A stretch of DNA of 37,665 nt from Sanchytrium tribonematis (Eukaryota), in contig JADGIG010000028.1 in assembly GCA_018985235.1 (NCBI GenBank), positions 1 through 37,665 on the forward strand. The letters are read 5' to 3'. A program made the position numbers and the translations under genes. Under the pieces are notes generated by a model. That model did no database searches. It saw only the letters and a list, made by a program, of their open reading frames with translations, and was not told the origin of the DNA. Shown here piece by piece: positions 1,322 through 23,700 of this stretch (positions within the stretch are counted from its first letter, which is position 1; every line of letters starts with the position of its first letter).

Positions 1322-2120
1322 TTACTCTTGCATAGCATCAGCATTGGTTTTAGCTGTTTGTACTAGTTCAGATATCCAAGCCTGGTCTACCATATGGAAT
1401 CCATCCTTCAGAATTCCAATTTCCACAAGCATCTGCTTGTCCTTAACATCATGAACCTTGACCATTCTAAATCAAAATTATTTACATTTCTGCAACCAAC
1501 TTAATGGCATCATTCACGGTTACATCACAAGAAGATTCGCTAGAGGAAATTTTTTCTAATTCTGTCATAGCTAAATTGTTACCTTTACCGCAGGCAATTG
1601 CTCTATATCCATAACAAGTAGCATCTGGTTCAAGCATGCCCAAGTAATCCTCAGTTGCAATGAGGCTTGTGCAACCATATGGTCTTAAATGAGAATAAGT
1701 TATATATTGATGAGTTGAAAAAAGCATTTGATCAACTAAAGCTCGACCATGCGCATCTATTCCGTACCTTTCTTTGTGATTGTCTGCGATACTTTTGGCA
1801 TCTGCCAGCATCGCTAAACCGTCAGCATATATACCGCTCCAGCTCATAATAGCATTTTTAGATATTGGACGCACCTGACTGATAGTAGTTGAAATACTAG
1901 TACCATCAATCAAACCATTTCTGCCATACACTTTTGATTTTGAGGTATATTTCACCAGTTGATTCTGGATTAAATGCATATGACCCAAAACTATTCCATC
2001 TTTACATTTAATGCCAAGTGTTAATGGAGCATTTTCAATTGCTTTTTTCGCGTATTCAATCTGAAAAATTTGACCGTCAGGAGCATAGGTAGAAACACTG
2101 AAGTCGTAACCGCTTGACAT
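1322..2120 (-). CDS. PRE10: 20S proteasome subunit alpha7; intron 1467-1485; possible additional intron(s) 1875-1931
   Basis: MSSGYDFSVSTYAPDGQIFQIEYA, GIKCKDGIV, RPYG. Splicing 1467-1485 adds the expected C-terminus (AEIMVKVHDVKDKQMLVEIG...MQE, TAA). Confidence 0.92.
1467..1485 (-). other. 19-nt spliceosomal intron GTAAATAATTTTGATTTAG
   Basis: GT-AG ends; contains the in-frame TAA that truncates the ORF; removal restores the alpha7 C-terminus. Confidence 0.9.
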
Positions 2121-2166
2121 TATTGCAATTGTTTGAAGGATAATAAATTTATTAAAATTTTAATAA

Positions 2167-2433
2167 TTACTTTTTTTGTTTATTAAGAATTTGCAATAAC
2201 CTATTTTGCATCTTATCCAGGCGAGTCATAAAATCCTGTAATTCTTCTTTTAATAATTTGTTTTGAATCTTGATGGTATCATTTTCATCCTGTAAACGCT
2301 TCAATTGTTCTGTTAATTCTTCTACTTGTTGTTCTAAATCTTGCTGCTTTTCGAGTTTTTTTGCTCTACTTTTTCTAGCTGCTAACGTATTCTTTTTTCG
2401 CCTTTCTTCCTTCCCAGAGGGATTGGGATTCAT
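2167..2433 (-). CDS. Short bZIP transcription factor (Gcn4/CpcA-like basic region), 88 aa
   Basis: RRKKNTLAARKSRAKK basic region followed by a long leucine zipper; in-frame TGA three codons upstream of the ATG. Confidence 0.85.
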   Translation of the reverse strand: MNPNPSGKEERRKKNTLAARKSRAKKLEKQQDLEQQVEELTEQLKRLQDENDTIKIQNKLLKEELQDFMTRLDKMQNRLLQILNKQKK

Positions 2434-2704
2434 TGATTGTCACGGGCCCCCCTAACAGCAACTTTATGTACTTCCAGAAGTACACATGTACCTCCATATG
2501 GGATATCTATTGAATTATCTAGAAATCAAAACATATTTCGCACATGGATTTCGCAATTTCCATACTATTATTTTTTGACACAATCTAAATTCTCGCAGCC
2601 AATCAAATAATGATCGAGTGATACGGAGTATTTTAAATCACTTATCATTGGATAGATAATCTGACCGGAGAACATAAGAAGAAACTTGATCCAGAGGTTA
2701 CACG

Positions 2705-3037
2705 ATGAATCAGCTTCAACGTACTTGGATCGCCCAAAATAAATTGTCAACATCGTTTGATCCAAACATGGAAAATTATGAATACATTGACCAAGTTCTC
2801 CAATATATCCAATTAGGTCGTTTAGATTGTGACCAACTTATTAATGTGATACCTTTTTTCGTGCAATATGCACAAGTTCCTGGACAAGTTCCTAACTGTG
2901 AAAATATGTTTATCGGCCTTTGTGCCATTTTTGAAGTAAGACCTACCCAATTTCTTGCGTATCTGACTGGAAGAACGAACCAAGATGTGTATAATGCAAG
3001 ACGTTATGCTGTGGAATATATGTCTAAAGTTGAATAA
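2705..3037 (+). CDS. Uncharacterised 110-aa protein, paralog of 12659-13000
   Basis: Clear protein similarity to the ORF at 12659-13000; stop in TAAATTT context like other genes. Confidence 0.85.
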   Translation: MNQLQRTWIAQNKLSTSFDPNMENYEYIDQVLQYIQLGRLDCDQLINVIPFFVQYAQVPGQVPNCENMFIGLCAIFEVRPTQFLAYLTGRTNQDVYNARRYAVEYMSKVE

Positions 3038-3085
3038 ATTTTGTTGACCCTAAATAAATTCACGGGAGAATCTCAAACGAACAAG

Positions 3086-6000
3086 ATGTCATTTGTTCAT
3101 TTGCACTTTGATCAATTTTTAGATTATCATCAAAATTTAATTAATAGCAAAATTATTAATCCACAAAATGACGCCCCTGCAATGGAACACTACATAAGTG
3201 TTATCCAAATGGAAGGCTTAAATGTTCCTTTAAAGGATGTTGTGAAGGTCAAATTCAATAATCAAGACTACATCTCCAAGTCTGATGCAGATACATCAAT
3301 GAACAATTATTTTAGGCAGTCTATTTATTATCTCAATTCTTTAAAAGATTCTGCTGAAATACCAGAGAATGTTCTTGCAACCTTACTCGATGTCTACATC
3401 AAATTATTTGATCATTTGTATTACTTTATGATAACCATTGATCAGCATGCTATTCAATGGGATAAATCTATGATTTATAGATACATGGAATTCACTTTGG
3501 ATCAAATGGACCGAATTGCAATGATTTTGATACATAATCCTTTTTCACCATCGAAAGAAATGCTTGAGCAATGGATTACAAAACTTATAGATTATCCTTC
3601 TGTTTCTTATCCCATGCTGATGATTCTTTTTAATTGGATCATAGAATGTGAGTCAATATCCATGTTTAAACAATGTGTCAACCAAATTGTAGACACACCA
3701 GAGAACCATTTGATTAAAAACATGCTATTACTTCCTCTTACGATCGAGCCACCTTCTAGATTTGAGTTGTTCACTTCCTTCAGGGACTACCTCAAACATA
3801 CAATTAATCACAATGATCCATTAGTACGCGTGAAGCAGCTTATTCACTACCAGCAAGATTATGTCACATCTAAAAAATTTAATGATGAATATTTTATAGT
3901 CTTGGACACATTTGTGCTTATTTTGTTTGATAATTACAGCAAACAAATCAGAACACTTCACGATAAAGATCTAATTGCGCTACTCGAAGTGCTGTGTATT
4001 ATTTATCGAAATAGAGTCTCTTTTACTACTTTTTTTACAGGTAAAGGATTATTGATACTTCAAGTTTTACAAGATTTAAAAATTTCACATCTCAAGTCAC
4101 CAGGGTTGTTTTACTTGAAATTATTTGCAAACATCAGTCAACACCCAGATAACATAGATTATGTATATAACTTTATAAAACACTCCAGAGGCATTTTAAA
4201 CATTGACGGAATGATCAAATCTGTTGATCAATTTACGACGATTTCTTGCAGTGACTTGGACTACGCTATTCTGCAGCCAATGATTTCCATTATTGGAAAT
4301 GTTCATTCATACGTAAATGATGATACACTCATTATTAATTTGATAAAACTAAGTTGCACCAGTGCACCACAGGATTTCAAAAATACAATTTACACTTCGC
4401 TTGGGAATCTACTTACCCCCTTTAATTACAAAGACATTGTATTCTATATTGTCAACACTAAAACATACACTGCTCTATTAGACTTACAAAATCCACTACC
4501 ACTTTTGCAATTGATTGAAAAATGTTTTGAATTTCCTTTTCACATGAATAATTTGAATGACTATCCACTTATAGTTGACTATACGATTCAGTTGTATCTG
4601 AAAGTGTATACTTTGAATAACCCTTTGAAGGTATTACATTCTATTTTTAAAATATTTGCTCGATGCTTACTCAGTTACCAAAACATTTCTCACAATGAGC
4701 TATTGCAACATCATCCGGGACATTTGATTTGTAATCAATTTCTCACTTTCCACAAAAATTCAAAACAAATGCGCCAAATATTACTAGATACCTTTCAAGA
4801 CATCAGAAAGCAAACCCAATATACGTGCGTGGATGCGTTTATACCAGATTGTCTTTATGAAATGCTTCGATTCACACATTCGCTGCTTGGAAGTCAAGAA
4901 CATTTTACTTTGTACAAAGGATCAATCAGTGCTACAAGCATTGAATACATTACAGATTATCTCAACCATCACAATTTCGTTGATTATTTGCTAGAGTGGA
5001 TTCATTTCCATGATCACGAAAATATTTCCACACTATCTATTTTTAATCTGTGTTGGTTCAAGACATCAAAGATAAGTGTTGATGTTTTAGAAAGATTTCA
5101 AGAAGATCTTCTATTGTATCCTGATCATAAAGTAGAATATAATGAATATGCTCACTTTTTTGATTACACCAACAAAACCCCAATATTTATTTACAATCCT
5201 CATTTTTTACAAAATGTCAATATTACTTCTCAGGAACTATTGGTTAGCTTTTTCTTGTTCTGCTTTAGAAATGAATACAAGATTGTCAACCAATTATTAG
5301 GATTAAATTCAAATGCAGATGTCTTTGTAGATTTTATCCATGCCATGCTACAAGTCCATCCACATGATTATGACTCGTTAGAAATGGATCAAAAAAATGA
5401 ATCTTTATTTGCACTAATTTATTATGGCTTGAAAACGAATCATGCATATTATTACACAAGTGGTTTTTATGATTTGCATATCCACGTTTTAAAATCAGAT
5501 GACTCAGACTATTATGCGTTGTTAATGAAATCTTGGTCCATTCAATCTAGCATGTTTTATTTAAATCAAAATAGCATACTCGCACTTAGTGATATTAGCC
5601 TCAAAATTCTAATCTTTGTGATCAACACAAATCCACAAATTTACATTATGAATCTCTTGAAACATATTCATAACACTACCAATGTGACTGAACCCAATCT
5701 GACGATACAAGATATTGTTCAACTTGATATTCCATCAGAATTAATGTCGCAATATTTTGTAAATCATACGTATTATCGTCACTTACATAAATTAAAATCA
5801 ATTTATCACAACGCATCTCAATTTGTTATGTCGTCTATTGCCAATTATTTGTATTATTTAAGTGACTATATGCAGCACAATTCTGCGCAAGATTACTCAA
5901 AATGGTATAATCAAGTGATTGGAATCATTCATCACATTTTGCAAATGAATCAATATCCAGAGTATTCTAGTGCATTGCTACTGAGCTGCAATCACTTTGT

Positions 6001-7332
6001 ATATATTTATAGTCAATCGCATTCTCACAAATTGCAAATTAAAGAATATTATTCATATTTGAGTATTCATAAAATGATGGATCCACAGTCCACTGCTTTA
6101 CTCTCTAGCGCAATGATTTACAATCATATATTAACAACTCAGACTAGTGTTGTACCAATTACTATAAAAGGAAGAGGGGAATTTACAAATTATCACGCGA
6201 TACAGCATGATTCTACAGATGGGTGTATTCAAGATTTATTGGATTTAGTATATAGCCAGCAAAATGAAACTAGTAGTGCATATTTACATTTGCTACAGTT
6301 GCTTCTTCTTCAAAAACCATGTGTTGTAAATATGACCAAATTGCTTAATTTGTTTAATCACGGGATGAATCCCGCTTTAATAGCGCATATTCTTACTTTG
6401 GTTGATTCAAATCAAATTAAACATCATTTGAAGCAAATTAAAATTGAAATGCATGAAAATATACTAATTAAAGATGATACATTGACATTTAAAGCATTAT
6501 ATAAACTAACCCCATTTATCAAATGCGCTAGTATTTTATTAAACAAATGTATTAAAAGCAACCAATCTGAATTACTTCTCGATATTCACCATATACTTCA
6601 AGAATGTTCCCCCATTTATTTTTATAGACAGGTGGAATACACAAATGATATTGAATTATACATTAAATTGATGTTTACTTTAAATTATTTTTGCAAAGCG
6701 TATTACACTCAAGAATTTGCAAATCACTCAAAATTATTTATTCATGAGAGCGTTTGCGACTTGACTTTGATTCAAATTCTTGTTAACTGTAGTATCCAAA
6801 AGCTGCGACAATTTAAACAAGAATGGAGTGAAATTTATAAAAATGCGGTGCTTAGTACTTTTTATATGTTTAAGAGTGCTCTGGTGTTGATGGTACAAAG
6901 AATGTGTTATTCGAAATATGTTTTAGATACGGAAGCTTTGACAAGCATTGTTGATTTATTTCTATATTTATATAGAATATATCATGACAAACTTCAAAGC
7001 ATTAAGCATGAAGACATCTCACTGGTAATTGTTAATTGATTTAGTCGGATTTAAAGCTTTATTATCCTGGAAATGTTTACAATGACAAGCAGGACTTTGA
7101 AAATTTGTTGAGGGCGTATAAGCCGAATACTAAAGAAATGGAGCCTGTTTTTGAATGGATATTTGGAGAAATTATAGAAGGTATGGAGTTGATTGGGTCA
7201 TTATTATTGAAATTTACAATTTATCAGCAAAATACTGAGGCAAGAATTTTGATGATGAAAATGGACATAATTAAAAGTGATTATCTAACAAAAATCAGGC
7301 AATTATTTAAAATGGTAAATGAGAGAGTGTGA
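3086..7332 (+). CDS. NUP192: Large alpha-helical protein (~1408 aa), probably nucleoporin Nup192/Nup205; intron 7025-7044
   Basis: Long ORF from ATG 3086 joined in frame to the 7105-7332 ORF by a 20-nt intron. LIKLSCTSAPQDFKNTIYTSL, HHPGHLI and LLVSFF...IVNQLLGL resemble Nup192/205 blocks as I recall them; highly diverged. Confidence 0.6.
7025..7044 (+). other. 20-nt spliceosomal intron GTAATTGTTAATTGATTTAG
   Basis: Phase 0; contains the in-frame TGA; removal gives EDISL|SDLKLYYPGN...LLRAYKP in frame with the downstream ORF. Confidence 0.88.
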
Positions 7333-7333
7333 T

Positions 7334-8320
7334 TTATTTGTCCAGGTTACCTAGTAAAAATTGATTGAAATATCTTCTTGCAGTTAAATTTGGAAAATCC
7401 AACTGATAATTGTCTTTGTTTGCATACGATAATATTCCTAATTCAAATAGTACCTTAATAGCCCGTTTTCTATCCATTTGTGACAATCTTAAATCACAAA
7501 GCTCCTCTGGTGGAATCGAAAGTGAATCTTCATGGAGGGAGAGCCAAATATTTTTGATCTCATTTTTGTTTATCATCTTCTTTGCATAAAAAACTTGCTC
7601 ACTATTCAGCATTGGAGGAATACATGAGAAAAAATGGGTTGGATTTTCGATGAGTAACCTTGTAAGGAATGGGTGCGAGATAATTTCGTCACCAAAAATG
7701 TAACCACTTACGTTTTGGCGAAGTAAATCCAAGATATACTTGCTGTCCATTGATTGAAAGAACGAATTGGATTTCAATTGAGGAAGAACTTGGGTTTCTA
7801 ATTCGTTCATGGTATATCCACAGACACCTCCCCAATTTCTATTAAAAGTCAAGTCTAGAATAGGCAAGTCCAAGCCTTTTATGACTTTAATCACTTCAAT
7901 CAATGAGCTTGAGGTTAGTATCAAACAATTAGACTTTTCGTATATTAAATTTAGTTTTTCAATCACTTTAACCACCTTGTCTTCAATGTTCCTATTTCTT
8001 AAAATATGTTCAACAATGAAATAATTTAAATCATTTATAATTATGGTTTCACCATTCTTGAGTGGTTTAAAGTCCAGCAGTTGACTCCCATGAATTATTT
8101 TTATTCTTGGCTGTATAATACTTTGACTGTTAGCTTTTTTCAAAGCCTCTGAACCTTGGAATAAAAAATTGCGATTGTCGAAGGAATTATTCCATGCAGA
8201 CAATGATTGAATAGCGGAATCAAGGTAAAATTGAGGGGGTCTGAATATATGCAAAACAGTCTTTCTGTTGAGTTGAATATGCTCAAGTACCTTAATGAGA
8301 TATCTCGTTTTATCAATCAT
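7334..8320 (-). CDS. Degenerate bacterial-type 'AAA-ATPase-like' (PF09820-type) protein
   Basis: Motif order IDKT, RPPQF (for RPRRFGKS), LFQG, CGYTMNE, SGYIFG...SHP, LFELGILS, LDFPN follows the family pattern. First in-frame ATG at 8320. Confidence 0.6.
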   Translation of the reverse strand: MIDKTRYLIKVLEHIQLNRKTVLHIFRPPQFYLDSAIQSLSAWNNSFDNRNFLFQGSEALKKANSQSIIQPRIKIIHGSQLLDFKPLKNGETIIINDLNYFIVEHILRNRNIEDKVVKVIEKLNLIYEKSNCLILTSSSLIEVIKVIKGLDLPILDLTFNRNWGGVCGYTMNELETQVLPQLKSNSFFQSMDSKYILDLLRQNVSGYIFGDEIISHPFLTRLLIENPTHFFSCIPPMLNSEQVFYAKKMINKNEIKNIWLSLHEDSLSIPPEELCDLRLSQMDRKRAIKVLFELGILSYANKDNYQLDFPNLTARRYFNQFLLGNLDK

Positions 8321-8439
8321 CACTTTCACAATGAAATTAACATGTGACAAATTGGACGTCAGAGGGTCGTCTGATGACTGTATTTGCCACTATGGTGTCA
8401 TATTCAATTGTTAAAGGTCATTGAGGAGTTTTATGAAGC

Positions 8440-8678
8440 ATGATTCAAATAAAGAAGAAAAGCTTAACAAAATTAGAGGTTATGCATATGACGTTTGATA
8501 AAATGAACAATGCATTCGAAGGAGAAAATTTAAGAAGACAAACGTTGCTCAATACGGTGGTCAGCTACTTTTTAGAGACTGATGAGATTCTAGTGCATCA
8601 AATATTATATGACAGAAGTAATTTACGATTAATATAGCATCATATTTGTATGGTGAAAATATGCTTCGGAATTCATAA
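8440..8678 (+). CDS. Candidate small hypothetical gene or gene remnant with a 20-nt intron 8618-8637
   Basis: GTAATTTACGATTAATATAG fits the local intron consensus; splicing extends the ORF to TAA 8676-8678 in TAAATTT context. 5' end uncertain. Confidence 0.4.
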
Positions 8679-8759
8679 ATTTAATTTGTAGATAGAATTA
8701 CTTTAATAAACACTTCAATGTAATAGGGGACATATTTTCTAAATTAGATTAATTTTAAT

Positions 8760-8832
8760 GGGGAATTAGCTCAATTGGTAGAGCGTTCGCTTTGCATGCG
8801 AAAGGTACAGGGATCGAAGCCCTGATTCTCCA
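8760..8832 (+). tRNA. tRNA-Ala (anticodon TGC), intronless
   Basis: Acceptor GGGGAAT/ATTCTCC + A; D arm GCTC/GAGC; anticodon arm TTCGC-TTTGCAT-GCGAA; T arm CAGGG-ATCGAAG-CCCTG. Confidence 0.97.
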
Positions 8833-8837
8833 TTTTT
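8833..8837 (+). terminator. RNA polymerase III oligo-dT terminator
   Basis: TTTTT directly after the tRNA discriminator base. Confidence 0.8.
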
Positions 8838-8954
8838 GCTTTAATTCATTCGAACCCGAATTCGTTAGAGTCTAGTAATGTTTCTTAATATTTGTATTCT
8901 TCGCATCAATATCAAAGCAAGCACATTTCACCAATTTTTTGTAACTAGGGAGGG

Positions 8955-9530
8955 ATGACGAGCGCTAGAAATGGCAAATTAATTGTTGTTGAGGGAATCG
9001 ATCGATCTGGTAAATCCACTTTAGTTCAAAGACTTTCTGAGCATTTTGATTGCATTAAATCAGGATTTCCTAACAGAAATACGCCTATTGGGAAGTTAAT
9101 TAATCAAATATTAACAAGGGAAGTTGTAGTTGATGATATAAATGCCATACACTTGCTCTTTACTGCCAATAGATGGGAATTGCAAACCCAATTATCCGAG
9201 TGGTTGAAGAATGAAAATGTGATTTTGGATAGATACATTTATAGTGGAATTGCGTATAGTGTTGCACAAGGAATCGACTTGGAATGGTGTCTTGAGAAAG
9301 AGACAGGACTTCTTGTCCCAGACAAAGTCATCTATCTGGATCTTGATGCCAAAGTAAGTGCTGAGCGAAAAGGATTTGGAGATGAGTTATATGAAAAGGA
9401 GAAATTTCTTAGCTTGGTGACTGAGGCATTTAAAATTCAAAAAGATAAAAACTGGATGTTTATAGATGCTACTAAGAGCATAGATGAAGTTTTTGAAGAG
9501 GCGGTTTCATTTATAAAGGAGAGTAAGTAA
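8955..9530 (+). CDS. CDC8: Thymidylate kinase
   Basis: P-loop EGIDRSGKST, FPNRNTPIG, HLLFTANRWE, DRYIYSGIAYS. Confidence 0.97.
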   Translation: MTSARNGKLIVVEGIDRSGKSTLVQRLSEHFDCIKSGFPNRNTPIGKLINQILTREVVVDDINAIHLLFTANRWELQTQLSEWLKNENVILDRYIYSGIAYSVAQGIDLEWCLEKETGLLVPDKVIYLDLDAKVSAERKGFGDELYEKEKFLSLVTEAFKIQKDKNWMFIDATKSIDEVFEEAVSFIKESK

Positions 9531-9545
9531 ATCTATGCTATTAGT

Positions 9546-11727
9546 TTAATACGGTCCCATTTTTAGGTTTTTCCCCTTAATTGTAAACATTTTGTCGAAC
9601 GGATCATCGATACTGGAATCCGAGACCTCTGTCAAATCGGAAGTACTGGGTTTGTTCATCTCGATGGAGGTGTGTGGAAGTCCGAGAGTTCGAGACATAG
9701 TCAATGGCTCAGCCTCTTCGTCAAAATTGTCTATACTTTTTAATGAAGGTGATTTGCTTCTCTGTCTATGAGCTGCTTTTTCATATAAAGTAGTCCTAGG
9801 CAAGTCATTTTTTACCGATGAGAGAGATGAGGAACGTGACAGTTCTAGTTCTGAATCTATAAGCTTTTGCTTTCTAGATGGTAACGCTTGACTCCTTTGT
9901 GATGTATTTGATCGTTTTGGCGGTGGAATTTTATCTGAAGAATATTCATCGATCACGTTTGCTACACCTAACTGAGATTCTCTATATTTTTTGTTCTTTA
10001 AAGATATTTTGCGTAGTATATTTGAGAATCTGTGGGAGTTGGATGATCTTTTGGTTGTCATCATTTCTTCATACAGCTCATCTGCATTATTAACACCTAA
10101 CAGTTCCGAATGCTTTGCCGCCAATGTCCGAGGTCCACCCCAGGAACGGGTAAAATAGGTTGCTATGCCATATATATACCTAAATTAATCAAAAATACAC
10201 CAAAGTGTAAAAGAATGGCATTAACATCATTAAAACAGGAAATGTAAATAAAACACTGAACAATTTGTACTTCAATGCATAAATTGTAACAATGAGCCAC
10301 TGGCCAATAAATGGGAATGCAAAAAACCACAAAGCATAATATGTTGTCAAGTACCCAGTAGCGTAATATAAAATAAATACAATTGCATATGCAGACATAA
10401 ATCTGTTACAAAATTCCAACATTCTCCATATTAGCAATAATGGTACCCTTTGCCATAATTCAAAACTAACAATCATCCAAGCTTCATTAGCCACAGCACC
10501 AAGTAGCCATCTTCGACGCTGCTTCATAAAAGATCGGAAACCAGTCACAGCGGTGGTAGAAGCATGTGCCACTGCACACATTCCAGTTGCACCAAATTCA
10601 TAATTTTGCATCAAAAGATGAGTCAAATATCGGTCTTCTCCCAAATAAAATCTGTGGTAATTTAAAGTGGCTTTCTGATTCAAATCTCCAAAATAAACTT
10701 TTCCAATTCTTCTCAATGTGGAATATCTAATCATGGTAAGGGCGCCTGGTAGACAAGTGACTCCGCCCAAGGCACTTTCCATGACCCTGACAACCAATTG
10801 GCCCTGCATATATTCCGGGTTTTGATAATGATATAGTAAATTCCACCATTGATTTGTTGTACAACTGATAAATCCAGTAACCGCTTTTTTACTCAAGTCT
10901 TTATCCATTGTCACCGCTAGATTGTGAATTGCATATCTGTCAAGTACAATGTCACTGTCTATCATTAATACATGATGATTTCTTCTGTTAATTCTTTCAG
11001 TCCTTTGTTGTATAAGCTGCCACGCATTACCTTGGGTAATCCTCTTTCCACCATGATCGCATCTAGTGACCACCAATTCCCGATTATTTACAACCACCAT
11101 GATACTACTAGGGAGATCTTGGGCTAAGGGAACATCATATTCTTTTAAAAGAGCTAAATAAATGGGACTCATTTCAGAATCGTCAAAGGTGCAATATAAG
11201 CTTAAGGGTCCATCGTACTCCGAGTACAGCACTGAGTGAACAGCTTTTAACAAATCATTTATATCTTCATTGTATATTGGCATGATTACGCTTATTTTGG
11301 TCGAGATAGTAAAGGTAGAAAGTTTTGATCTCCAAATTTTTTGCGAAAATATAGAATACACAGCACAAATAACAGGCAATATTCCGAATAATGAATAAGA
11401 CGCCAAAATGACATAAAATGATTGCTCTTTCAGAAAATAAGGCATTTGAGAATCAAATTCAATCGGAAAGAGGCTCAATGTTAAAGGAATATACATGACC
11501 CGTAAATACAAAAATAGCAGCATGAATAATAACGAAGCAACTTTATATTTAATTTTACCCACCATGACTAACTTGATGGGTAATAAAATAAATATACTCG
11601 TAAAAGTAAGAAACTCAAGAACACCATGTCCTAAGGCAATCCATGTTAAAATTTGGAGCCAAATTGGCATTTGATCTTTACCTGAATGACCGTAGAGATC
11701 CGTTATGATATCTGTCAAATCTCCCAT
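9546..11727 (-). CDS. Chitin synthase, compact class VI-like GT2 (~720 aa); intron 10180-10198
   Basis: IDSD, QNPEY, CLPG, LGEDRYL and QRRRW present; splicing adds YIYGIATYFTRSWGGPR and joins the 9546-10124 ORF as a low-complexity tail. Confidence 0.9.
10180..10198 (-). other. 19-nt spliceosomal intron GTATTTTTGATTAATTTAG
   Basis: Contains the in-frame TGA; removal (GT|G = Val) restores the SWG motif of chitin synthases. Confidence 0.9.
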
Positions 11728-11768
11728 TCGCAAAGTTTGGCCCTAAAATCCCTGATCCTTTTATTGAT

Positions 11769-12014: not shown

Positions 12015-12033
12015 TATTCTCCTTGAGATAACA

Positions 12034-12240: not shown

Positions 12241-12382
12241 ACTCTTTGATATTTCAGATCGCTTGTTTGTGTTTATTAAACAATGCATCGATACCCAGTG
12301 GATAATTATAATAAATTGTTCGCACAATATCGAAAATGAATTTAGTAGAATTATGAATTATTTACTATTTAAAAAGGCTCAA

Positions 12383-12541: not shown

Positions 12542-12658
12542 TTAGATGAAGCAGACGACTTCCTTTTTATAAGGAAACATGTGAAAATTGGGCAATCATA
12601 ATCCAATCACATCAGATATGTGACAAACGTGTCGATCTTCACATTTGATTAGTAAATT

Positions 12659-13000
12659 TTATTCATAAAGCATGCAATGATTTGCTTGTTCTTTGGCATA
12701 ATCAAGTTCTTTCAGACTCCTCCCAGTTAAATATCCTAAATAACAATTAGGCTTGACCTTGAAAACTGCACAAAGTCCAACAAACATTGACTCTGCATAA
12801 TTTATGTTATTTGTACATTTGATATAGTGTAAAAGAGCTCTTATTACCGGTTCGAGCTCAGAAGCTCCAAATCGACCAACTAAAATGTAATTGAGAATTG
12901 GTTCAATATATTCAAAGCCATCCATGTACAAATCAAAGTGCTCTAGCATTTGATTGATAACCAATTCTGTGTTAGTAAAATGGGATTCGATAGTATTCAT
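12659..13000 (-). CDS. Uncharacterised 113-aa protein, paralog of 2705-3037
   Basis: Shared blocks with 2705-3037; TATATATAAG 30 nt upstream of the ATG. Confidence 0.85.
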   Translation of the reverse strand: MNTIESHFTNTELVINQMLEHFDLYMDGFEYIEPILNYILVGRFGASELEPVIRALLHYIKCTNNINYAESMFVGLCAVFKVKPNCYLGYLTGRSLKELDYAKEQANHCMLYE

Positions 13001-13876: not shown

Positions 13877-13958
13877 TCGGTCTAAAATAAACTTGTGGCG
13901 TAGGTCCAATTTAACAAATGGCTAAAAATTATTAACTTTAAACGCTGCAAGAAAGTAG

Positions 13959-14366: not shown

Positions 14367-14372
14367 ATTATT

Positions 14373-16130
14373 TTATTTGTCAAAATCCAATTTAAATTTG
14401 CTCGTTTTCGGGATTAATACTAAGTCGCAAAGTTCTTTGGTTTCAGATTTCTTGTTTATCAAACTATTTAAAGAAGTAGTTGAATTTGCTTGAGTTGTTG
14501 AATTTGAGTACGTTTCGTCGTTAGAATTTTTTCGGGCCTTTGTGTTGACGGAAAACTCAGTTTCTGATATGGAAAATGCCCGGTTGCTACGTTGACCCAA
14601 TGAGGTCTTCTTTTGGTGGTTTTCGTGAATATGCTTCTTGTGACTCCAGTGGCTCACAATTTCTTTTATTTCCCTAGACTCTAAATCTTCCTTTCGCACC
14701 TCAATTTTCCCAAAATCAAGAGTTCCTCTTATCAAATTAATAATCAAGTCAATTAGAATAAACACAAGGTTGACAAATGGGCCAAACAGTACATACAGAG
14801 CATAGTAAAAAAAATTGTACCACATTTGAAACCTTGTTGTATTTAAAAGTAATAGAAGTAATTCACCCACAAAAGGAGCCAGAAAAATTAAATTGATAGC
14901 TGGCGCTTGACCAAAAGCATAGAGAACAATACTCAAAAAGGGGATGATTGAGAAAAATTGACAAAAAAATTGCAACACATGTGTTATTGTATACGTCTTT
15001 GGATATTCAGACAATAATAAAATCCAGCAGTACTCTCGTAACAATTGGAGTAAATGCTCTCTATGTATATAGTTTGAGAGCGTAGAAGATGGTTGATTTT
15101 TGGCAATACTCAAACTACACAATCCAATGCTCTCCCTACCCTTTTCGCTAACCAGATATCTTGATAAATCTACATCAGCCCCTAGATTAAATTTTGTTGA
15201 GCTCTGATGGAATATGATTGTTTGGCATTCATTTAATGCCTTTTGTGTTATAATGAAAAAACTTTGTGGGAGAGAATGCAAGTACCCACAGGAAAGAGGC
15301 AACTGTTTCCATTGATAAAAATTATCACAAAAGTGATATGAACTACCGTCTATTGTACCAGTCATTGCAACTCTTTGAGGGTACTTTGTAAATGTCATAC
15401 AAAAATTATGCACAACATTCTTATTCAACATGACGTTGGAATCTATAAATAGTACATACTCAAATTGATCCAACTGCTGGGCAAGATTCCAAGCATATTG
15501 TTTTGGGTCCACATCGTGATTCTGCCTTTTACATATGACGAGGTGCTTTTCCATTCCTGGAATTGATAAATCCACAATTCCATATTCCAAGGTCTTTTGC
15601 TTAAATTCAACATGATATTCCTTCAGTAGCTCAATATAAGCGAGATTCATTTCATAACTGTCAAACGAGCAAAAAATTGTTAAACGGCCCTCGTATTCTT
15701 GATTGACAGCCTTTTTAATGGTAGAAATAAGTTGCTTTGGATCTTCGTTGTAAACAGGAATTATGACAGCCACAGTTGGATTCTTGCGCCTCTCATCTAG
15801 GCGATATCCGACAATTGACTGGCTTATAATGTAGCGCAGTAAAAGCCCAGCTGACCAAATTCCATAGATGGCATAAAAGAACAAAAGTAAGTAAAATCCA
15901 CCATCAGCAAGAACCTTCGGAGTTTTGACAATAAAGGACACAGCAAAACTGACATAGAGTATTCGAGATAGAAAATACAAAAGTAGAAGCACAATAGCTA
16001 CAGCTTTATACCTATAATCTAATCTAAATAATACAGAAGTCGCTGTTACGACTCCAATTGATGTTAATACAAACTCAGCAAAACAATGTGATATTGCGTA
16101 GTAGTAAAGAATAGAAATCCATGTGTCCAT
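14373..16130 (-). CDS. Chitin synthase class VI-like paralog with degenerate catalytic motifs
   Basis: Same architecture as 9546-11727 (N-terminal TMs, VIIPVYNED, FD, IDS, C-terminal TMs) but EDR appears as ADV and QRRRW as HREHL. ATG 16130. Confidence 0.85.
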   Translation of the reverse strand: MDTWISILYYYAISHCFAEFVLTSIGVVTATSVLFRLDYRYKAVAIVLLLLYFLSRILYVSFAVSFIVKTPKVLADGGFYLLLFFYAIYGIWSAGLLLRYIISQSIVGYRLDERRKNPTVAVIIPVYNEDPKQLISTIKKAVNQEYEGRLTIFCSFDSYEMNLAYIELLKEYHVEFKQKTLEYGIVDLSIPGMEKHLVICKRQNHDVDPKQYAWNLAQQLDQFEYVLFIDSNVMLNKNVVHNFCMTFTKYPQRVAMTGTIDGSSYHFCDNFYQWKQLPLSCGYLHSLPQSFFIITQKALNECQTIIFHQSSTKFNLGADVDLSRYLVSEKGRESIGLCSLSIAKNQPSSTLSNYIHREHLLQLLREYCWILLLSEYPKTYTITHVLQFFCQFFSIIPFLSIVLYAFGQAPAINLIFLAPFVGELLLLLLNTTRFQMWYNFFYYALYVLFGPFVNLVFILIDLIINLIRGTLDFGKIEVRKEDLESREIKEIVSHWSHKKHIHENHQKKTSLGQRSNRAFSISETEFSVNTKARKNSNDETYSNSTTQANSTTSLNSLINKKSETKELCDLVLIPKTSKFKLDFDK

Positions 16131-16387
16131 GTTCACAAGGAGGTAGTCGCTACACAAAAAAGTTAGATTGAAAATTTCTTAGGAAAGTCCCCGTGATGAC
16201 TCTGAAATTATTTATTTTACTATATAATAGACTTCAAAGCCTCTCAACTACTTTCGCTGGGGCATTATTTCACTGATGATTGGTACTGCCAATCAAAGCA
16301 ATCCCCTTTCCCACTTGTAAATTAACTTGCTTTAATTTGGCAAGCCGTTTTGATAACATAAAAGGCGGTTCACCTATATTGAACAAT

Positions 16388-16867
16388 ATGAAATACCTTT
16401 TAGCTGCCTCTGTTTTGGCTTTTACTGTTGAAAATTCAATCACTAAAAGAGCAATTTTACCACCTAGTGGGATTCCCCCTCCACCACCTGGCGGGTCTCC
16501 CCCTGGTCCACCTGCTTCTCCTCTAACAGGTCCTAGTCCCAGCCCACCTGTTATCCCACCTAGTCACGAACCTACAGAAACTGGCTCTCCTGTAATGGGA
16601 GGACCAGAACATGAGCCTTTACATGAGACTCAACCGGAACCTATTGGAGAAATTAGACAAGAACCAAAACAAGAACCACTACATGAACCTCACCAGGGTC
16701 CTGATCATCTAGAACCTGTAAATCTTGAACCATCACATGCTGATACTGTGACGCCAGTGTCTGGAGCTTATGCAACCGAATCAGAAGAGATTCACGAGGG
16801 TACCTATTCTAGCGCAAGTCAATCAATTTTGAGTGCTTATATTATTGGGGCTCTATTTTTACAGTAA
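16388..16867 (+). CDS. Secreted Pro/Glu/His-rich, probably GPI-anchored surface protein
   Basis: Signal MKYLLAASVLA, Kex2-like KR, polyproline tract, HEP/QEP repeats, hydrophobic C-terminus after YSSAS. Confidence 0.8.
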   Translation: MKYLLAASVLAFTVENSITKRAILPPSGIPPPPPGGSPPGPPASPLTGPSPSPPVIPPSHEPTETGSPVMGGPEHEPLHETQPEPIGEIRQEPKQEPLHEPHQGPDHLEPVNLEPSHADTVTPVSGAYATESEEIHEGTYSSASQSILSAYIIGALFLQ

Positions 16868-16882
16868 ATTACTCAAGATTTA

Positions 16883-18049
16883 TTATAGTATGATACGTTC
16901 AATTACAATAGCAGATGCTCCTCCTCCGCCGTTGCAAATTCCGGCGCATCCGTATTTTGCCTTTTTGTCATTAAGAATATTCATCAATGTCACTACTACT
17001 CGTATGCCGGAACACCCAAGTGGATGTCCTAATGCAACAGCCCCACCACGAATGTTAACTTTTGACAGAGGTATATTGAGTAGTTGTGCATTAACCAAAC
17101 CAGCTACTGCAAAAGCTTCATTAATCTCATAATAATCTACTTGGTCTAGGGTAATATCTGCTTTTTTTAACGCTTTTGGAATCGCCAAATGCGGGGTTGT
17201 GACAAAATCTACAGAATCTTGCTCAGAATCGGCACACGCGAGAATTTTAAACACTGCATCACCTTTCTTGATGTGTCCATCTTTAAGGTAATTAGACATT
17301 TGCTTCTCACTAACTATTACAACGGCGCTTGCGCCATCACTCAATGGAGATGCGTTTGCTGCCGTGACAGTGCCATCTTTGGTAAAAACTGGTTTTAATT
17401 CTTTGACTTTTTCAACTTTTAGCTTCCGAATATTTTCATCTTCCTTCACAACAGTTTTCTGTCTGCCTCTAATTTCGATGGGAAGAATTTCATTTTTAAA
17501 ACAACCGGAATCCGTAGCTTCAACAGCGCGCCTAAACGATTCTATGGCATAATTATCCTGCTGTTCCCTCGAAATTGAATATTTTTCCGCAGTTCCATCC
17601 GCACACTCCCCCATTAATTTTTTTTGAAAAGGATCCAATAAACCATCATATTGTAGGCCATCTCTTAAGTCCGTGGAGCCATACTTAAGACCCCTATTGA
17701 CGTAGTATGGAGCATTGCTCATTGACTCTGAACCCACTGCCAAAACAGCATCTGCTCCACATAAAATACTCAAATTAGCTATACTAATCGCCTTCATTCC
17801 ACTTGCGCATACTTTGTTGATTTGGGTACCTATTGCTTTTTCAAGACCGCTATGTACACAGACTTGTCTTGCTGGATTTTGTCCTTGATTGGCACTTAGA
17901 ACATGTCCAAAAAATACTTCTTCGATATCATTCTTGACAGGAACTATCTGTGCTACCTCAACAGCTAGATCTATTGCAGACAGACTTGACAGTTGACCTT
18001 GAAAAGATCCAATAGGTGTCCTCTTACCAGAAATAATGAAGGAATGCAT
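16883..18049 (-). CDS. ERG10: Acetyl-CoA C-acetyltransferase (thiolase)
   Basis: RTPIGSFQG, NKVCASGMKA, EINEAF, GHPLGCSG, ICNGGGGA. Confidence 0.96.
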   Translation of the reverse strand: MHSFIISGKRTPIGSFQGQLSSLSAIDLAVEVAQIVPVKNDIEEVFFGHVLSANQGQNPARQVCVHSGLEKAIGTQINKVCASGMKAISIANLSILCGADAVLAVGSESMSNAPYYVNRGLKYGSTDLRDGLQYDGLLDPFQKKLMGECADGTAEKYSISREQQDNYAIESFRRAVEATDSGCFKNEILPIEIRGRQKTVVKEDENIRKLKVEKVKELKPVFTKDGTVTAANASPLSDGASAVVIVSEKQMSNYLKDGHIKKGDAVFKILACADSEQDSVDFVTTPHLAIPKALKKADITLDQVDYYEINEAFAVAGLVNAQLLNIPLSKVNIRGGAVALGHPLGCSGIRVVVTLMNILNDKKAKYGCAGICNGGGGASAIVIERIIL

Positions 18050-18085
18050 CAGCCCAACTCCTTTTAAAATATATATTTACTTTAC

Positions 18086-20660
18086 TCAAAATTCTACATT
18101 TGGATTTAATCCCACCATAGGGTCTTCTAACAATTGTCCATCCTCGTCCATTTTGTCTTCAATTAACACATTTTCCTTATTAACCAGATGTTTAATAATG
18201 GCTTTTAAAATTCTCTCCAGCTCCACAAGATCATCGGCATCTTGAATTTCTTGTTCCATTTCTTCCATCATGTAAGCAATTAAATCGCTTCTTGGCATCA
18301 TTGGCTCATCGTCACTGACACTCTTAAATTTTAGAATAATTTGCTCCTTTAACTTTGCAAATTTTGATCCTGTTAACTTTACTTTCTTAACTTGCTGTTC
18401 TACACTTTCAATAGCATCCATGGCGTCATTTTGAATCATAATATCCACATCTTCATGCTTAATTTGGGTAGTTGAACTGCTTACCAATCTATACGCTTCT
18501 TTGGCAAATTGAACATGCACCTCATTTTGGCCGTGGAGCCTTGCCAATGCTTCAGATAATCGAATCATGCTTTCCATTTGACGAACAGTAATTCTATCAC
18601 CCATTGCATTAGGATCTGCCTTTTGAAGCATTCTCAATTTTTTAAATGCTTTGCTTAAAAAAAGAGCAGCTTCACTTGTTAAGACTGGTTTGATGGTTCT
18701 ACAAAACTTAATGTAATTTCTCATTTGATCTTCTGTATAAGGTGTCTTGTGTGATTCCATAGGAGTTTGGTTTTTTTCCAACAATCCAGCCTGTAGGTGT
18801 TGTTTTGCAATAAGTTGAGATAATTGTATGTCTGTGGCCTCATCACAATCATCTTTAAGAATAAAAAATAAATCGAATCTGCTCAAAATAGGTCCTGTCA
18901 GTGCAACATTTTGTTTTAGAGTCTTTCTGGAATCATACCTACCAAATACAGGGTTTGCTGCAGCCAGAATACTCGTCCGAGCATTTAATGTGGCTTGTAT
19001 ACCAGCTTTCGAAATGCTAATGGTTTGCTGCTCCATTGCCTCGTGAATAGCTACTTGGTCTTTTGTGTCCATCTTTTCAAATTCATCGATTGCACAAACT
19101 AAATAAATGTAAATTACTTCCTTGATCAGCCAGCATCAAGGCTCCTGCCTCAATTGTAAATTCATTCGTTTCTTCTTCCCTAATAACACTAGCAGTCAAA
19201 CCGGCAGCAGAACTTGCTCGCCCACTTGTAAAAATACTTCGCGGATGAAAGTTACAAACCCATTTTAAAAGTTGAGACTTGGCTGTTCCTGGATCTCCGA
19301 CGAGAAGTATATTAACATCTCCGCGAAGATTGATTTGCTCTGGCGTCTGTTTGTGGACGCCACTGATCAATTGCAGTAAAATTCCTTTTTTGATATCATC
19401 ATGTCCAAATACACTTGGGGCCACACATTTTACAAAATTATTGTATATATTACTATCTTGGGTCATTTTTAATAATTGATTTCTTTGACTTTCAGTGAAA
19501 CATTTTTCCAAAATTTGATTTGGATCTAACAAATCAGGATCCAACCAGTATTCTGCCATTTCATCGTTATTAGCGGACTGTGATGCAAGAGCAGATGTTG
19601 GTTGCGTTGTTGGTAAATTGTCTGTCTGTGTTAGTCTGGATTTGAAAGAATCGTCAGTCGCAAGGTCATCGATATTTTGTCGCTTTCTTACTGACGGTTG
19701 TATAATTTTGATGCTCCCACTTACAACCTTAACATGGCTAGCCATAAATACAAGCTTGTGGCTTAATTCCCTTACACCCAAATCTTTAAAACCACTTACA
19801 CCTCCTGCGTTAGTTTTTTGGTCTTTTCCTCCTCTTCGTATCTCTACACCACCCAATTTAAGAGAATATGCCGAAATGTCTGGTATTGCAAGCAGGCATC
19901 CACTGATGCAACATTTGTCACCAGCCTTTGCTGTTTCTACAATGTCTCCACGGCAGATAACTTCGATTGTCCTGGGCATGGCTCCACTTGGTATTTCATC
20001 AGAACTTTCTTGAAATCTTAATTTTTGCCAATTTAAAAATTTGGAATTTTGTAACTGTAAATCAAACTGAACATTATTTTGACATGAAGTGTCAGGGCAA
20101 ACTTTTGGTTCAGTATAACGAAATTCTTGTTCAACGTTTTTAATGTCTGTCCCACATTCTCTGCAAGTAAAATTTCCTACAGTTAATTCTGGGCGAACAT
20201 CGCTGGTCCTAGTTACCGTTCCAACAACTTCTACCAACTCTCCAATTTTCTCGCACCCCAAATGCCTGAGTTGCATAGTTTGCATGACTTGATCGAAAGC
20301 TACCATAAAATGTCTCATAGGTCTATGATTTTCATTGTAAAGTGGCAATTGCATTCCGATGCCTCCGTCAGGAATAACTGGCATCTCTCCATCAGCATAT
20401 AAAAGTGCAGGGCAATGCTTATATACGAGGTATTCTGCTGCTTTACTAAGATATGGCAAAAATCTGTAATAATACTTGTATATTGCAGTACTGAAAGTCG
20501 AATCGAAACTGATTAGGTGTCTCATATTAACCATTAAAGTTGTCTTGTCTGTGTCTTTAAGACTCTTCAACTGACTGATGTAAACTTTTCTGTTCTTAAT
20601 TTGAAATGTCTCTACAAATTGAACAAACCTTTCGGCTGCTTTGCGTTCCAAATCATCCAT
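18086..20660 (-). CDS. MCM6: DNA replication licensing factor MCM6; intron 19099-19117
   Basis: VTRTSDVRPEL, Zn-finger CREC/CPDTSC, GDPGTAKSQ, spliced ALMLADQGICAIDEFEKM, SRFD. Confidence 0.96.
19099..19117 (-). other. 19-nt spliceosomal intron GTAATTTACATTTATTTAG
   Basis: Removal reconstitutes the conserved MCM Walker B region with no residue gained or lost. Confidence 0.96.
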
Positions 20661-20798
20661 GTTTGACAATGGCAAAAATAATTTTTTTAAACTATTAAGC
20701 AATAACAAACAATAATGAACATTCTTGTTCTCAATTGATTTCGAGCATATGATTGTGTGGAACGGAAAAAGAAAAGTGGTACAACTTACATAAATTTA

Positions 20799-23700
20799 TT
20801 AATTAGTGGATAATTTTTGCTGATCAACCAAAATCGTATAATTTCCATTTTTTGCATACAACTCATCGTGAGTTCCAATTTCTATGATTTCGCCGTTTTT
20901 CAGGACTATGATTTTATGAGCATCTTGAATTGTTGAAAGTCGATGTGCAATTACGATTGTTGTTCGATTTTGAGATGCCTCCTCTAATGCTTTTTGAACA
21001 ATTTTCTCGCTTTCGGTATCCAAAGCACTGGTAGATTCATCTAATAAAAGAAATTTTGGATCTCTATAGAGCGCTCGAGCAATTACGATTCTTTGCTTTT
21101 GACCACCTGAAGCGGTGGTATTACCGATTAAAGTGTCAAACTTTTCTGGTAAATTGTCAATAAAGTCAAAAATATTGGCCTGGCGAGCACATTTTTCGAC
21201 TTTTTCCCTATCAATCATATCCGCGCCAAACGCAATATTTTCGTTGATAGTTCCACGAAACAAAATCGGGTCTTGAGAAACTAATGCCATTTGATCTCTT
21301 AGATATTTGGGCTGCCACTTTTTTAAATCTACATTTTCACAGGCGACATTACCGGCTGTCGGGTCGTAAAATCGTTCTAAAAGCTGAATGATTGTAGACT
21401 TTCCGCTTCCACTTTGACCAACAAGAGCGGTGGTTTTTCCGACTTCAAAATTTTCTGTAATTCCCTTCAAAATTTTCATATCCTTGCGATTTGGATAGTA
21501 AAATTCCACGTTATTTAATGTTGCTGTTCCTTGAACATCTACCGGCTTCTCTCCGGCATCTTGAAGAGAATTTATGGCGCTCTCCCTATCAACAATTTCG
21601 AAATAAACTTGAGCTGCCACTGCAGCACGGCTCATTACTGATAGCTGTGCAAGAGCTTGACCGATTCCGGTCATTGAAAATACAACAGGAAAAATAACTC
21701 CAAACAAATCCTCAAAGCCGATCTTTCCCGCAATTAAATACAGCGAAGCTAACCAAAATGCGTATGCCAGAACAAAAAACATAGCCGCTTGGGAGATAGC
21801 AAAGTACACACTGCTGGTTAAAGTGCTTTTCAGTGCTTCTTGATGTGGTTTTTCTGTTCGATGCTCAAAGTAATCCAAAAATGCTTCCTCCCTATTAAGG
21901 CTCAGAACTGTGCGAATATTTTGAACTGCATCACATGCAATTGTTGAAGCTTTTTGATACTCATCGCGCAATTTTTTAGTCATTCCTTCCATGACTCTCT
22001 TTCGCATAATTCCCATAAATATTATGAGAGGCACAGCAATCGCAATTAAAGCCGTTAACTCAGCATTGTGATAAAACGCAATACCTAGACCAGTTGCGAC
22101 TGTTGCTAAAGATTGAATGATAACCCCCATTAGTTGCCCTGTGAGGCTTCTTATTTTGTCAGCCTCCTCACTTAATTGGGCACTTAGTGTACCGCTATTG
22201 TGCAATGGCTCGTCAAAAAAGCCAATTTCTTTCTCCAGAATCCCTTTGAACATACTATTTCTAATCATAACAGTTAATCGTTCTCCTGAAATGGAAAAGC
22301 AGGCAACTTGAGTGAATAGCGCCACAAATGCGCAAACCGCCAATACCAAAAACATATAAACCCAAAAAGTGGATTTTTCTACAACCTCATCATGAGTTCC
22401 AGCAAACACCGTTAAAATTTGACTTAAAATGACTGTATAAAGAGGGAAAATTGCACCATTGGCACAAGCTCCAATAAATCCTATAGTTAACAATGGCCAG
22501 TCATTTTTCTGCATTTTAAATAGTCTTGCAATCGGCCATTTTGTGATGGGAACTTTTGTCCTTTTTATAGTTTCTGCTTTCACCACATCAGCCTTGATAA
22601 CTTCTTTCGTCTCTTCTTTGGAGGTGGTAGTGACTCTTGGACGATCATTTGCACCTCTTAATCCCTGGGCCTTAACTAATGCATAAAAATCACCCTGTTT
22701 TGCGACCAACTCTTCGTATGTTCCAGTTTCACAAATGAAGCCTTTATTCATTACAACAATCATATCAGCATCTTTAATGGTTGAGAGCCTATGTGCAATG
22801 ACAAACGTAGTTCTATTTTCCGCAGCTTTGTCCAGCGCTTCTTGAACTACTTTCTCTGAGGTGCTGTCCAAAGCTGAAGTTGCTTCATCAAGCAAAATTA
22901 TAGAAGGGTCTTTCATGAGCGCCCGAGCTATAGCAATTCGTTGACGTTGTCCTCCACTCATTTGTCCACCTTTCTCACCAACAGTTGTGTCGTAAGAATG
23001 CGGAAATTGTTCTATAAAGTCGTGTGCTAAAGAGAGTTTGCAGCATTGTTTAATCTTATCCATATTTAAAGCTATCAAGCTTGCTCTCTCCTTAAAGTTA
23101 AATTCCTTTGCTCCCAGCATTACGTTTTCAGATATGGAGGTGTCAAATAAAACTGGTTCTTGACTTACTAAACCAATCTGCTGTCTCCACCAATTCGTAT
23201 CGATTTCATTTAGTGGAATTCCATCCACTAAAATTGTACCTTCATCAGGATCATAAAATTTTTGTAAAAGCTGAACAATAGTACTTTTTCCACTGCCTGA
23301 GCTTCCTACCAATGCAACTTTTTGGCCGGGTTTAATTTTGAGAGTGAAGCCTTTTAATACCTGAGTATCTTTTCTTGTTGGATACGAAAACTTGACATTT
23401 TCGAAATTGATCTCGCCTTTAAAGTCTTTGATTACTTTTCCAGGTAACGGTTTTTTGATTTCATTCACAATTTGCCTAACTTCTCCCCAAGCTCCAGATG
23501 CACTTTTTATATCTCCCAATGCTGGACCAATTTGCCCCAAAGCAAAAGCACCTAAGTAAATTTCAACTACCAATTAAAACAGCGAAAAAAACATTAAGCA
23601 CGTCACCTCCGGTCATGCTTCCGCTTTTAGTAGAACCATCAGGCAACTTTCCTTCTGCTACTTTCTCAGAACCGTACCAAAAACCAAGAGCGTAAGTTCC

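What the first reader, a model, noticed from the sequence alone, without database searches (positions are those of the whole stretch)
1467..23570. Fixed-length 19-20 nt spliceosomal introns with an invariant A at -6 in a fungal-type genome
Seen directly: five genes are split, and each is repaired by one GT-AG segment: 1467-1485 (19 nt), 7025-7044 (20), 10180-10198 (19), 19099-19117 (19), 23552-23570 (19). A sixth candidate is 8618-8637 (20). In MCM6 and the ABCB pump the splice restores conserved motifs exactly. All five start GTA and end TTNAYTTAG (TTGATTTAG twice, TTAATTTAG, TTTATTTAG, TTTACTTAG), with no CTAAC box and no polypyrimidine tract. None is a multiple of 3, and no conventional-length intron is needed anywhere in the window. 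Established: typical fungal introns are much longer; comparable sizes are known from chlorarachniophyte nucleomorphs (about 18-21 nt) and heterotrich ciliates (15-16 nt, branch A near the 3' end). Inference: a remodelled, length-measuring spliceosome with the branch A fused to the 3' splice site and a lariat loop of only about 14 nt, evolved independently in a fungal lineage.
Basis: partly seen in the sequence, partly recalled or inferred. Interest (0 to 1): 0.9.

Follow-up and report, generated by a model that had tools for sequence, protein, structure and literature searches.

The report
Nineteen-base introns in sanchytrid fungi
Five genes of a small algae-parasitising fungus (a sanchytrid) are each interrupted by a 19-20-base stretch that is very likely an intron cut out by the ordinary splicing machine, which would be shorter than any fungal intron I found reported and would repeat the tiny-intron design known from the ciliate Stentor.

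Summary
Observation confirmed. The window groups with the sanchytrid Amoeboradix gromovi (MCM6 71% identical; SH-aLRT 100). Five genes break at GT-AG segments of 19, 20, 19, 19 and 19 nt. Removing them gives gap-free agreement with intron-less orthologues or solved homologues at four sites. At two sites (proteasome alpha7, a 1408-aa protein), unnamed relatives break at the same codon. Two of their read-through tails back-translate to 19-nt introns with A at -6, one compatible with a canonical ACTAAY box (chance about 2% and 4%). So -6 is likely an ordinary branch point placed next to the AG, as in Stentor and Yarrowia. These would be the shortest fungal introns in the papers I reached (Encephalitozoon 22-76 nt). 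The sanchytrid genome paper used no splicing model, and truncated proteins sit in the public collection. Not shown: splicing itself (no RNA run), genome-wide length (no genome), the sixth candidate, or a 'length-measuring' spliceosome. A. gromovi keeps the core spliceosome; Slu7 and Prp18 were not found in its annotation.

The parts
1467..1485 (-). 19-nt phase-2 intron in the proteasome alpha7 (PSMA3/PRE10) gene, 2120-1322
   Evidence: same break in 2 of 2 relatives P0123 and P0124; the P0124 tail allows a YAG end only at 19 nt, with A at -6
7025..7044 (+). 20-nt phase-0 intron in an uncharacterised 1408-aa protein gene, 3086-7332 (no Pfam family)
   Evidence: A. gromovi orthologue P0246 is continuous, matches both exons and reads in register across the junction; P0247 breaks at the same codon and its tail fits a 19-nt intron with ACNAAY and A at -6
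10180..10198 (-). 19-nt phase-2 intron in a chitin synthase gene, 11727-9546
   Evidence: exon 1 and exon 2 abut in orthologues P0126 (71%) and P0127 (64%) with only the split codon between them
19099..19117 (-). 19-nt phase-1 intron in MCM6, 20660-18086, inside the P-loop domain
   Evidence: Pfam MCM profile positions 3-123 in exon 1 and 124-224 in exon 2; continuous in A. gromovi P0002 and in P0003, P0004
23552..23570 (-). 19-nt phase-1 intron in an ABCB (MDR-type) transporter gene, 24570-20799
   Evidence: exon 1 residue 332 = mouse ABCB1 residue 335; first whole codon of exon 2 = residue 338, leaving exactly residue 333 and the split codon
8618..8637 (+). 20-nt candidate intron in a 73-codon frame; fits the relaxed consensus (A at -6) but is unconfirmed
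   Evidence: no Pfam or exact-sequence support

Best explanation
These five 19-20-base GT-AG segments interrupt essential and conserved genes of a sanchytrid fungus and are very likely U2-type spliceosomal introns, predicted to be spliced through a branch adenosine six bases from the 3' end. Shown: the segments, the frame breaks, the gap-free fit to homologues, shared breaks in relatives, and the A at -6. Inferred mechanism: U1/U6 read the short donor GTA; U2 pairs with the degenerate box YTNAY at -9..-5 and bulges the A at -6; step 1 makes a lariat loop of 14-15 nt; the first AG, 5 nt after the branch A, docks for step 2 without a polypyrimidine tract. In yeast such short distances make Slu7 and Prp18 unnecessary, and neither was found in the A. 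gromovi annotation. The narrow length is most simply a floor (smallest loop this spliceosome can close) pressed by deletion bias in a compact genome, not a dedicated ruler. Intron presence is patchy between relatives, so loss or gain is continuing.
For: Frame repair at all five. Gap-free fit at four: MCM6, chitin synthase, ABCB, 1408-aa protein. Of the alternative frame-restoring GT/GC-AG pairs listed, the two shorter ones (14 and 16 nt) would add residues that the homologues lack. Same-codon breaks in P0123, P0124 and P0247. The tails of P0124 and P0247 can encode YAG only at 19 nt, or at 19 or 24 nt, with A at -6; random AT-rich tails pass the full test in 2.2% and 3.6% of 1500 trials each. 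P0005 and P0121 break at another MCM6 site with a tail that fits a GTAT start. Core spliceosome and DBR1 are annotated in A. gromovi. Stentor has the same layout: GUA start, branch A at position 10 of 15 and 11 of 16, Slu7 and Prp18 not found (PMC9505925 passages). Slu7, Prp18 and Prp22 are not needed for step 2 below 7 nt (PMC3392075); Slu7 is dispensable below 9 nt (10.1101/212811).
Against: No spliced RNA or lariat was seen. The relatives' introns are back-translated from protein tails, not read as DNA, and P0247 also allows 24 nt. A. gromovi lacks the intron at 2 of 2 sites where its orthologue was found, so mini-introns are not shown in a named species. For alpha7, exon 2 alone hits no solved structure, so its boundary rests on the relatives' breaks. 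Five introns in 37.7 kb cannot exclude longer ones elsewhere, and stop-free 18- or 21-nt introns would be missed by frame breaks (the motif scan found none that holds up). The absence of Slu7 and Prp18 rests on term searches of an annotation that covers about half the proteins; name searches also missed PRP16, PRP40 and YJU2.
Confidence: 0.87

Rival explanations
1. The five are real introns but only the short tail of a mixed population: the genome also holds conventional-length introns, or these are poorly spliced as in microsporidia, so there is no fixed-length system.
For: Only five introns in one window and two inferred in relatives; no genome. E. cuniculi has 22-76-nt introns with low splicing of the short ones. 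One relative's tail also allows 24 nt.
Against: 5 of 5 window introns are 19-20 nt and both informative relative tails fit 19 nt; none of the other 27 hand-listed genes needed a longer intron on inspection of frames and Pfam coverage. The interrupted genes include MCM6 and a proteasome subunit.
Confidence: 0.15
2. The segments are frameshifting insertions in decaying genes, or assembly or amplification errors.
For: The only DNA run laid may be the source of the window; two of the five sites were not checked against it.
Against: Five insertions share GTA...TTNAYTTAG, fall in essential single-copy-type genes with intact flanks, and two sites are shared with other species at the same codon; no gaps in the contigs over four segments.
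Confidence: 0.03
3. The segments are removed or bypassed without the spliceosome: Ire1-type cleavage as for the short HAC1/XBP1 introns (recalled), or ribosomal bypass or frameshifting.
For: The length resembles the roughly 20-nt fungal hacA intron (recalled).
Against: No CNGCNG loop motif within 25 nt of any of the six segments and no common hairpin pair at the boundaries; all carry GT, AG and a branch-type box; the relative has the spliceosome and debranching enzyme.
Confidence: 0.03

Closest known systems
Heterotrich ciliate tiny introns (Stentor coeruleus; PMC9505925, passages)
   Same: GUA start, AU-rich, UAG end, branch A at -6 in both length classes, two adjacent lengths, Slu7 and Prp18 not found
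   Different: 15-16 nt with a loop of about 10 nt against 19-20 nt with 14-15 nt; 8806 introns against about 0.15 per kb here; a clearer YTNAY box here; unrelated lineage
Mikrocytid introns (PMC10245619, section 7 read)
   Same: Parasite, two adjacent lengths, conserved sequence, few introns
   Different: 16-17 nt; spliceosome reduced to 17-19 proteins, whereas A. gromovi keeps U1, U2AF and BBP; none in metabolic or transporter genes, whereas here one is in an ABCB transporter
Chlorarachniophyte nucleomorph introns (PMC6009652, passages)
   Same: 18-21 nt, GT-AG
   Different: No discernible branch A, about 3 introns per gene, relic endosymbiont nucleus
Encephalitozoon cuniculi introns (PMC3629993, PMC6349667, PMC2483917; passages)
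   Same: Fungal-lineage parasite, few short GT-AG introns, TAAYTT-type branch hexamer
   Different: 22-76 nt, many in ribosomal-protein genes near the start codon, reduced spliceosome. Here 19-20 nt, mid-gene or 3', and the RPS9 and RPL17 frames need no intron
Yarrowia lipolytica fixed branch-point-to-AG introns (PMC2483917, passages)
   Same: Fungus; branch box 2 nt from the AG, which puts the branch A at -6; no polypyrimidine tract
   Different: Long introns (median 204 nt) and a strong ACTAAC box; only the 3' end is fixed

Membership tests
U2-type spliceosomal intron | GT...YAG ends whose removal restores the coding frame | tested here: met
   5 of 5; gap-free against homologues at 4 of 5
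U2-type spliceosomal intron | Branch-point-type box with a fixed A near the 3' end | tested here: met
   TTNAY with A at -6 in 5 of 5; YTNA and ACNAAY forced by two relatives' tails; sequence only
U2-type spliceosomal intron | Removed from mRNA through a 2'-5' lariat | not testable with these tools
   No RNA holder listed
U2-type spliceosomal intron | Major spliceosome encoded in the lineage | tested here: met
   A. gromovi eggNOG table: PRP8, BRR2, SF3B1, U2AF small and large subunit, BBP, U1-70K, DBR1 and others; a relative, not the window's genome
U2-type spliceosomal intron | U2/U6 snRNA complementarity to the signals | not testable with these tools
   No genome; Rfam finds only a tRNA in the window
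Ultra-short length-constrained introns (Stentor/mikrocytid type) | All introns within one or two adjacent lengths below about 22 nt | tested here: inconclusive
   5 of 5 in the window are 19-20 nt and 2 of 2 informative tails fit 19 nt; genome-wide distribution unknown
Ultra-short length-constrained introns (Stentor/mikrocytid type) | Branch A at a fixed distance from the 3' end (-6 in Stentor) | tested here: met
   position inferred from conservation, not from lariats
Ultra-short length-constrained introns (Stentor/mikrocytid type) | Loss or change of step-2 and branching factors | tested here: inconclusive
   0 hits for SLU7, PRP18 and four recalled KO/KOG ids in the held table; annotation-only; CWC25 and ISY1 present
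U12-type minor intron | RTATCCTT donor and TCCTTAAC branch site (recalled) | tested here: not met
   0 of 6 segments carry either
Ire1-type non-spliceosomal intron | CNGCNG loops on hairpins at both ends (recalled) | tested here: not met
   0 of 6
Introner (transposon-derived intron family) | Near-identical intron sequences at unrelated sites | tested here: not met
   The middle 7 nt match at 1-4 positions in all 10 pairs

The most novel reading that the evidence does not exclude
The whole sanchytrid lineage has converged on a single 19-20-nt intron class, the shortest in Fungi, with the branch A locked at -6 and Slu7/Prp18 lost as in Stentor, yet with U1, U2AF and BBP kept. That would be an independent, fungal-lineage case of minimal splicing geometry, with likely hundreds to about a thousand unannotated introns per genome that truncate the public proteomes.
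Probability: 0.55. Interest if true: 0.75.

Novelty: new member of a known kind. Interest (0 to 1): 0.62.

Why it matters
Length-constrained introns under about 22 nt are known from heterotrich ciliates, mikrocytids and nucleomorphs. A fungal case descended from an intron-rich ancestor would be another independent origin and would lower the fungal minimum from 22 to 19 nt (among papers reached). Convergence on GUA, a branch A at -6 and possibly loss of Slu7/Prp18 points to a shared geometric floor of the spliceosome. Such introns can be tested directly in yeast reporters and extracts. Practically, the published sanchytrid proteins were called with TransDecoder on genomic contigs, and the collection holds read-through truncations (P0001, P0122, P0125, P0245), so gene-loss and phylogenomic claims for this phylum may need re-annotation.

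Tried and rejected
No own genome held. No RNA holder listed; this is no evidence either way. The X1 contigs have no depth beyond 11339 in the stretch laid, so the MCM6 and ABCB segments remain unchecked against DNA. The search for related loci found no sanchytrid DNA: in metagenome contigs 80 loci were kept, of which I inspected the 12 most eukaryote-like by tblastn (none closer to A. gromovi than to a mucoralean MCM6; the five read in full that carry telomere repeats or TAA/TAG read as Gln look like ciliates); in viral contigs 1 weak locus; in prokaryote genomes none. The 18-nt motif hit at 33057-33074 is conserved RPL17 coding sequence, the 17-nt hit at 23197-23213 is antisense, and other relaxed hits fall in unbroken frames: all rejected. 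Adjacent frames at 2690/3038 and 24630/25424 are separate genes with their own start codons. Alpha7 exon 2 alone has no PDB or Pfam hit. The sixth candidate gave no Pfam or exact match, and the Atlas gave no answer. My working label 'Nup205-like' for the 1408-aa protein (in the notes) has no support and is dropped. The careful tree did not finish; the quick tree is reported. The Stentor genome paper PMC5659724 was not held.

Full report
Observation. All six segments lie at the stated coordinates. The window is 35.3% GC and about 88% coding in my hand list of 32 genes. Removing each of the five main segments joins two open frames into one. The products are proteasome alpha7 (259 aa), an uncharacterised protein (1408 aa), a chitin synthase (720 aa), MCM6 (851 aa) and an ABCB transporter (1250 aa); lengths are counted from the first Met and identities come. 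The phases are 2, 0, 2, 1, 1. The strict motif occurs 5 times at 19-20 nt, all at these breaks, and once more at any length from 14 to 40 (antisense). Shuffles give 0.11 on average. This is partly circular, and a relaxed motif was not clearly above chance (6 against maximum 6). Contigs of the only listed DNA run span four of the six segments without gaps, but that run may be the window's source.

Organism. MCM6 exon 1 is 71% identical to a protein of Amoeboradix gromovi and 66-69% to three unnamed ENA proteins; the next named fungi are at about 42%. A quick tree of 26 of the 120 listed hits (chosen by hand for spread; the window row without its read-through tail) puts these five rows in one clade at SH-aLRT 100 on a stem of 1.68 changes per site. 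The window is therefore a sanchytrid (Sanchytriomycota, algal parasites, sister to Blastocladiomycota according to PMC8371127). No Blastocladiomycota row was in the tree, and I did not assign a species.

Are the boundaries right? MCM6: the Pfam profile runs 3-123 in exon 1 and 124-224 in exon 2, and 3 of 3 informative close relatives are continuous there. Chitin synthase: the two exons abut in orthologues at 71% and 64% identity. ABCB: exon 1 residue 332 matches mouse ABCB1 residue 335, and the first whole codon of exon 2 matches residue 338. The 1408-aa protein: only two homologues exist among 1.84 billion representatives. The A. gromovi one is continuous and matches both exons (E 4e-8 and 1e-9, pairwise); read by eye it is in register across the junction, although MAFFT placed the start of exon 2 badly. 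Alpha7: exon 1 stops near residue 200 of 255 of the mammalian protein; exon 2 alone is too divergent to hit the PDB. Shorter frame-restoring options of 14 and 16 nt exist at two sites but add residues that the homologues lack.

Independent test in other species. The 19-20-nt length and the A at -6 were stated before these data were seen. Both relatives found for alpha7 (P0123, 75%; P0124, 70%) end at the same codon as the window's unspliced frame. P0124 continues for five residues and stops. Back-translation allows a YAG end only at 19 nt and forces YTN at -9..-7 and A at -6. P0247 breaks at the same codon as the 20-nt intron. Its tail allows YAG at 19 or 24 nt, and the 19-nt reading forces ACNAAY with the last A at -6, which fits the canonical ACTAAY branch box. 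Random AT-rich tails pass the complete test in 2.2% (phase 2) and 3.6% (phase 0) of 1500 trials each; the base frequencies were set by me. P0005 and P0121 break at another MCM6 site with a tail that fits a GTAT start but gives no length. At least two other species thus appear to share the class. A. gromovi lacks the intron at 2 of 2 sites where its orthologue was found, and its alpha7 was not among the hits.

Mechanism. Shown: ends, box, lengths, and a donor-to-A distance of 14-15 nt. Inferred: normal two-step U2-type splicing, with U2 pairing to YTNAY, branching at -6 and use of the first AG 5 nt downstream. The eggNOG table of A. gromovi (supplement file 4 of PMC8371127, cut at 4 million characters; the A. 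gromovi sheet appears whole because the second sheet begins near part 385, and the second species' sheet is mostly missing) lists PRP8, BRR2, SF3B1, both U2AF subunits, BBP, U1-70K, a LUC7-like protein, CWC25, ISY1, PRP17, PRP22, DBR1 and UPF1. SLU7 and PRP18 gave 0 hits by name and by four recalled KO/KOG ids, but SNU114, PRP16, PRP40 and YJU2 also gave 0 by name, so this is weak. It would fit yeast biochemistry, where these factors are not needed at short branch-to-AG distances (PMC3392075 and 10.1101/212811, passages). It would also fit Stentor, where both were not found. Nothing here shows a ruler. A lower limit plus deletion bias, as proposed for mikrocytids, explains the narrow range. 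Retention of any of the five shifts the frame and gives a premature stop.

Comparison and novelty. Heterotrichs 15-16 nt, mikrocytids 16-17, nucleomorphs 18-21 (PMC10245619 section 7; PMC6009652 passages), E. cuniculi 22-76 (PMC3629993 passages), myxozoan medians down to 22 (PMC13644364, first third and passages). Stentor's branch A is at -6 in both length classes (PMC9505925 passages). Yarrowia has the same 3' geometry in long introns (PMC2483917 passages). The design is therefore known; the lineage and the length are new as far as I could search. Searches for sanchytrid introns and for the shortest fungal introns listed no report. In the three sanchytrid-citing papers I opened, 'intron' occurs only in a reference title or about Blastocladiella. 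The genome paper called proteins with TransDecoder on contigs; its main supplementary PDF and one table were too large to read and could mention introns. Most subscription journals are not searched. The fungal survey PMC8476143 (passages) names no sanchytrid among the phyla it lists. Earlier scan notes hold nothing on this DNA or on sanchytrids; two mention 26-29-nt or very short introns in Rozella, unchecked here.

Verdict. Real feature; very likely U2-type mini-introns of 19-20 nt in a sanchytrid, shared with unnamed relatives, unproven by RNA. New member of a known kind, and a probable record for Fungi. Interest 0.62.

Noticed in passing
window 2705-3037 (+) and 12659-13000 (-): Two small ORFs of about 110 aa resemble each other by eye in their C-terminal halves; no Pfam family. 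Probably a lineage-specific paralogue pair.
   Followed up: no
window about 1860-1930 (-), alpha7 exon 1: Proteasome alpha7 carries an insertion of roughly 20 residues relative to solved alpha7 chains, conserved as coding sequence in P0123 and P0124.
   Followed up: partly
window 8760-8832 (+): tRNA gene (anticodon UGC, Ala), the only Rfam match in the window.
   Followed up: yes
window 14373-16130 (-): A second, very divergent GT2/chitin-synthase-like gene with only sub-threshold Pfam hits and no QRRRW motif.
   Followed up: no
window 7852-7930, 9078-9149, 10992-11044: Clusters of variant letters on alternative short contigs of run X1, consistent with two haplotypes or mixed strains; none lies in an intron.
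   Followed up: no
window 31944-32483 (-) and 32630-33196 (+): Ribosomal-protein genes RPS9 and RPL17 read as single frames, unlike the intron-bearing ribosomal-protein genes typical of yeasts and microsporidia.
   Followed up: partly
L079 about 1315-1331 and L045 about 1574-1593: MCM6 genes of ciliate-like metagenome contigs (TAA/TAG read as Gln) carry GT-AG introns of about 17 and 20 nt at one shared position, different from the window's; 17 nt is short for such ciliates.
   Followed up: no
proteins P0001, P0122, P0125, P0245: The window's own genes are in the public protein collection as truncated read-through products ending at the introns.
   Followed up: yes
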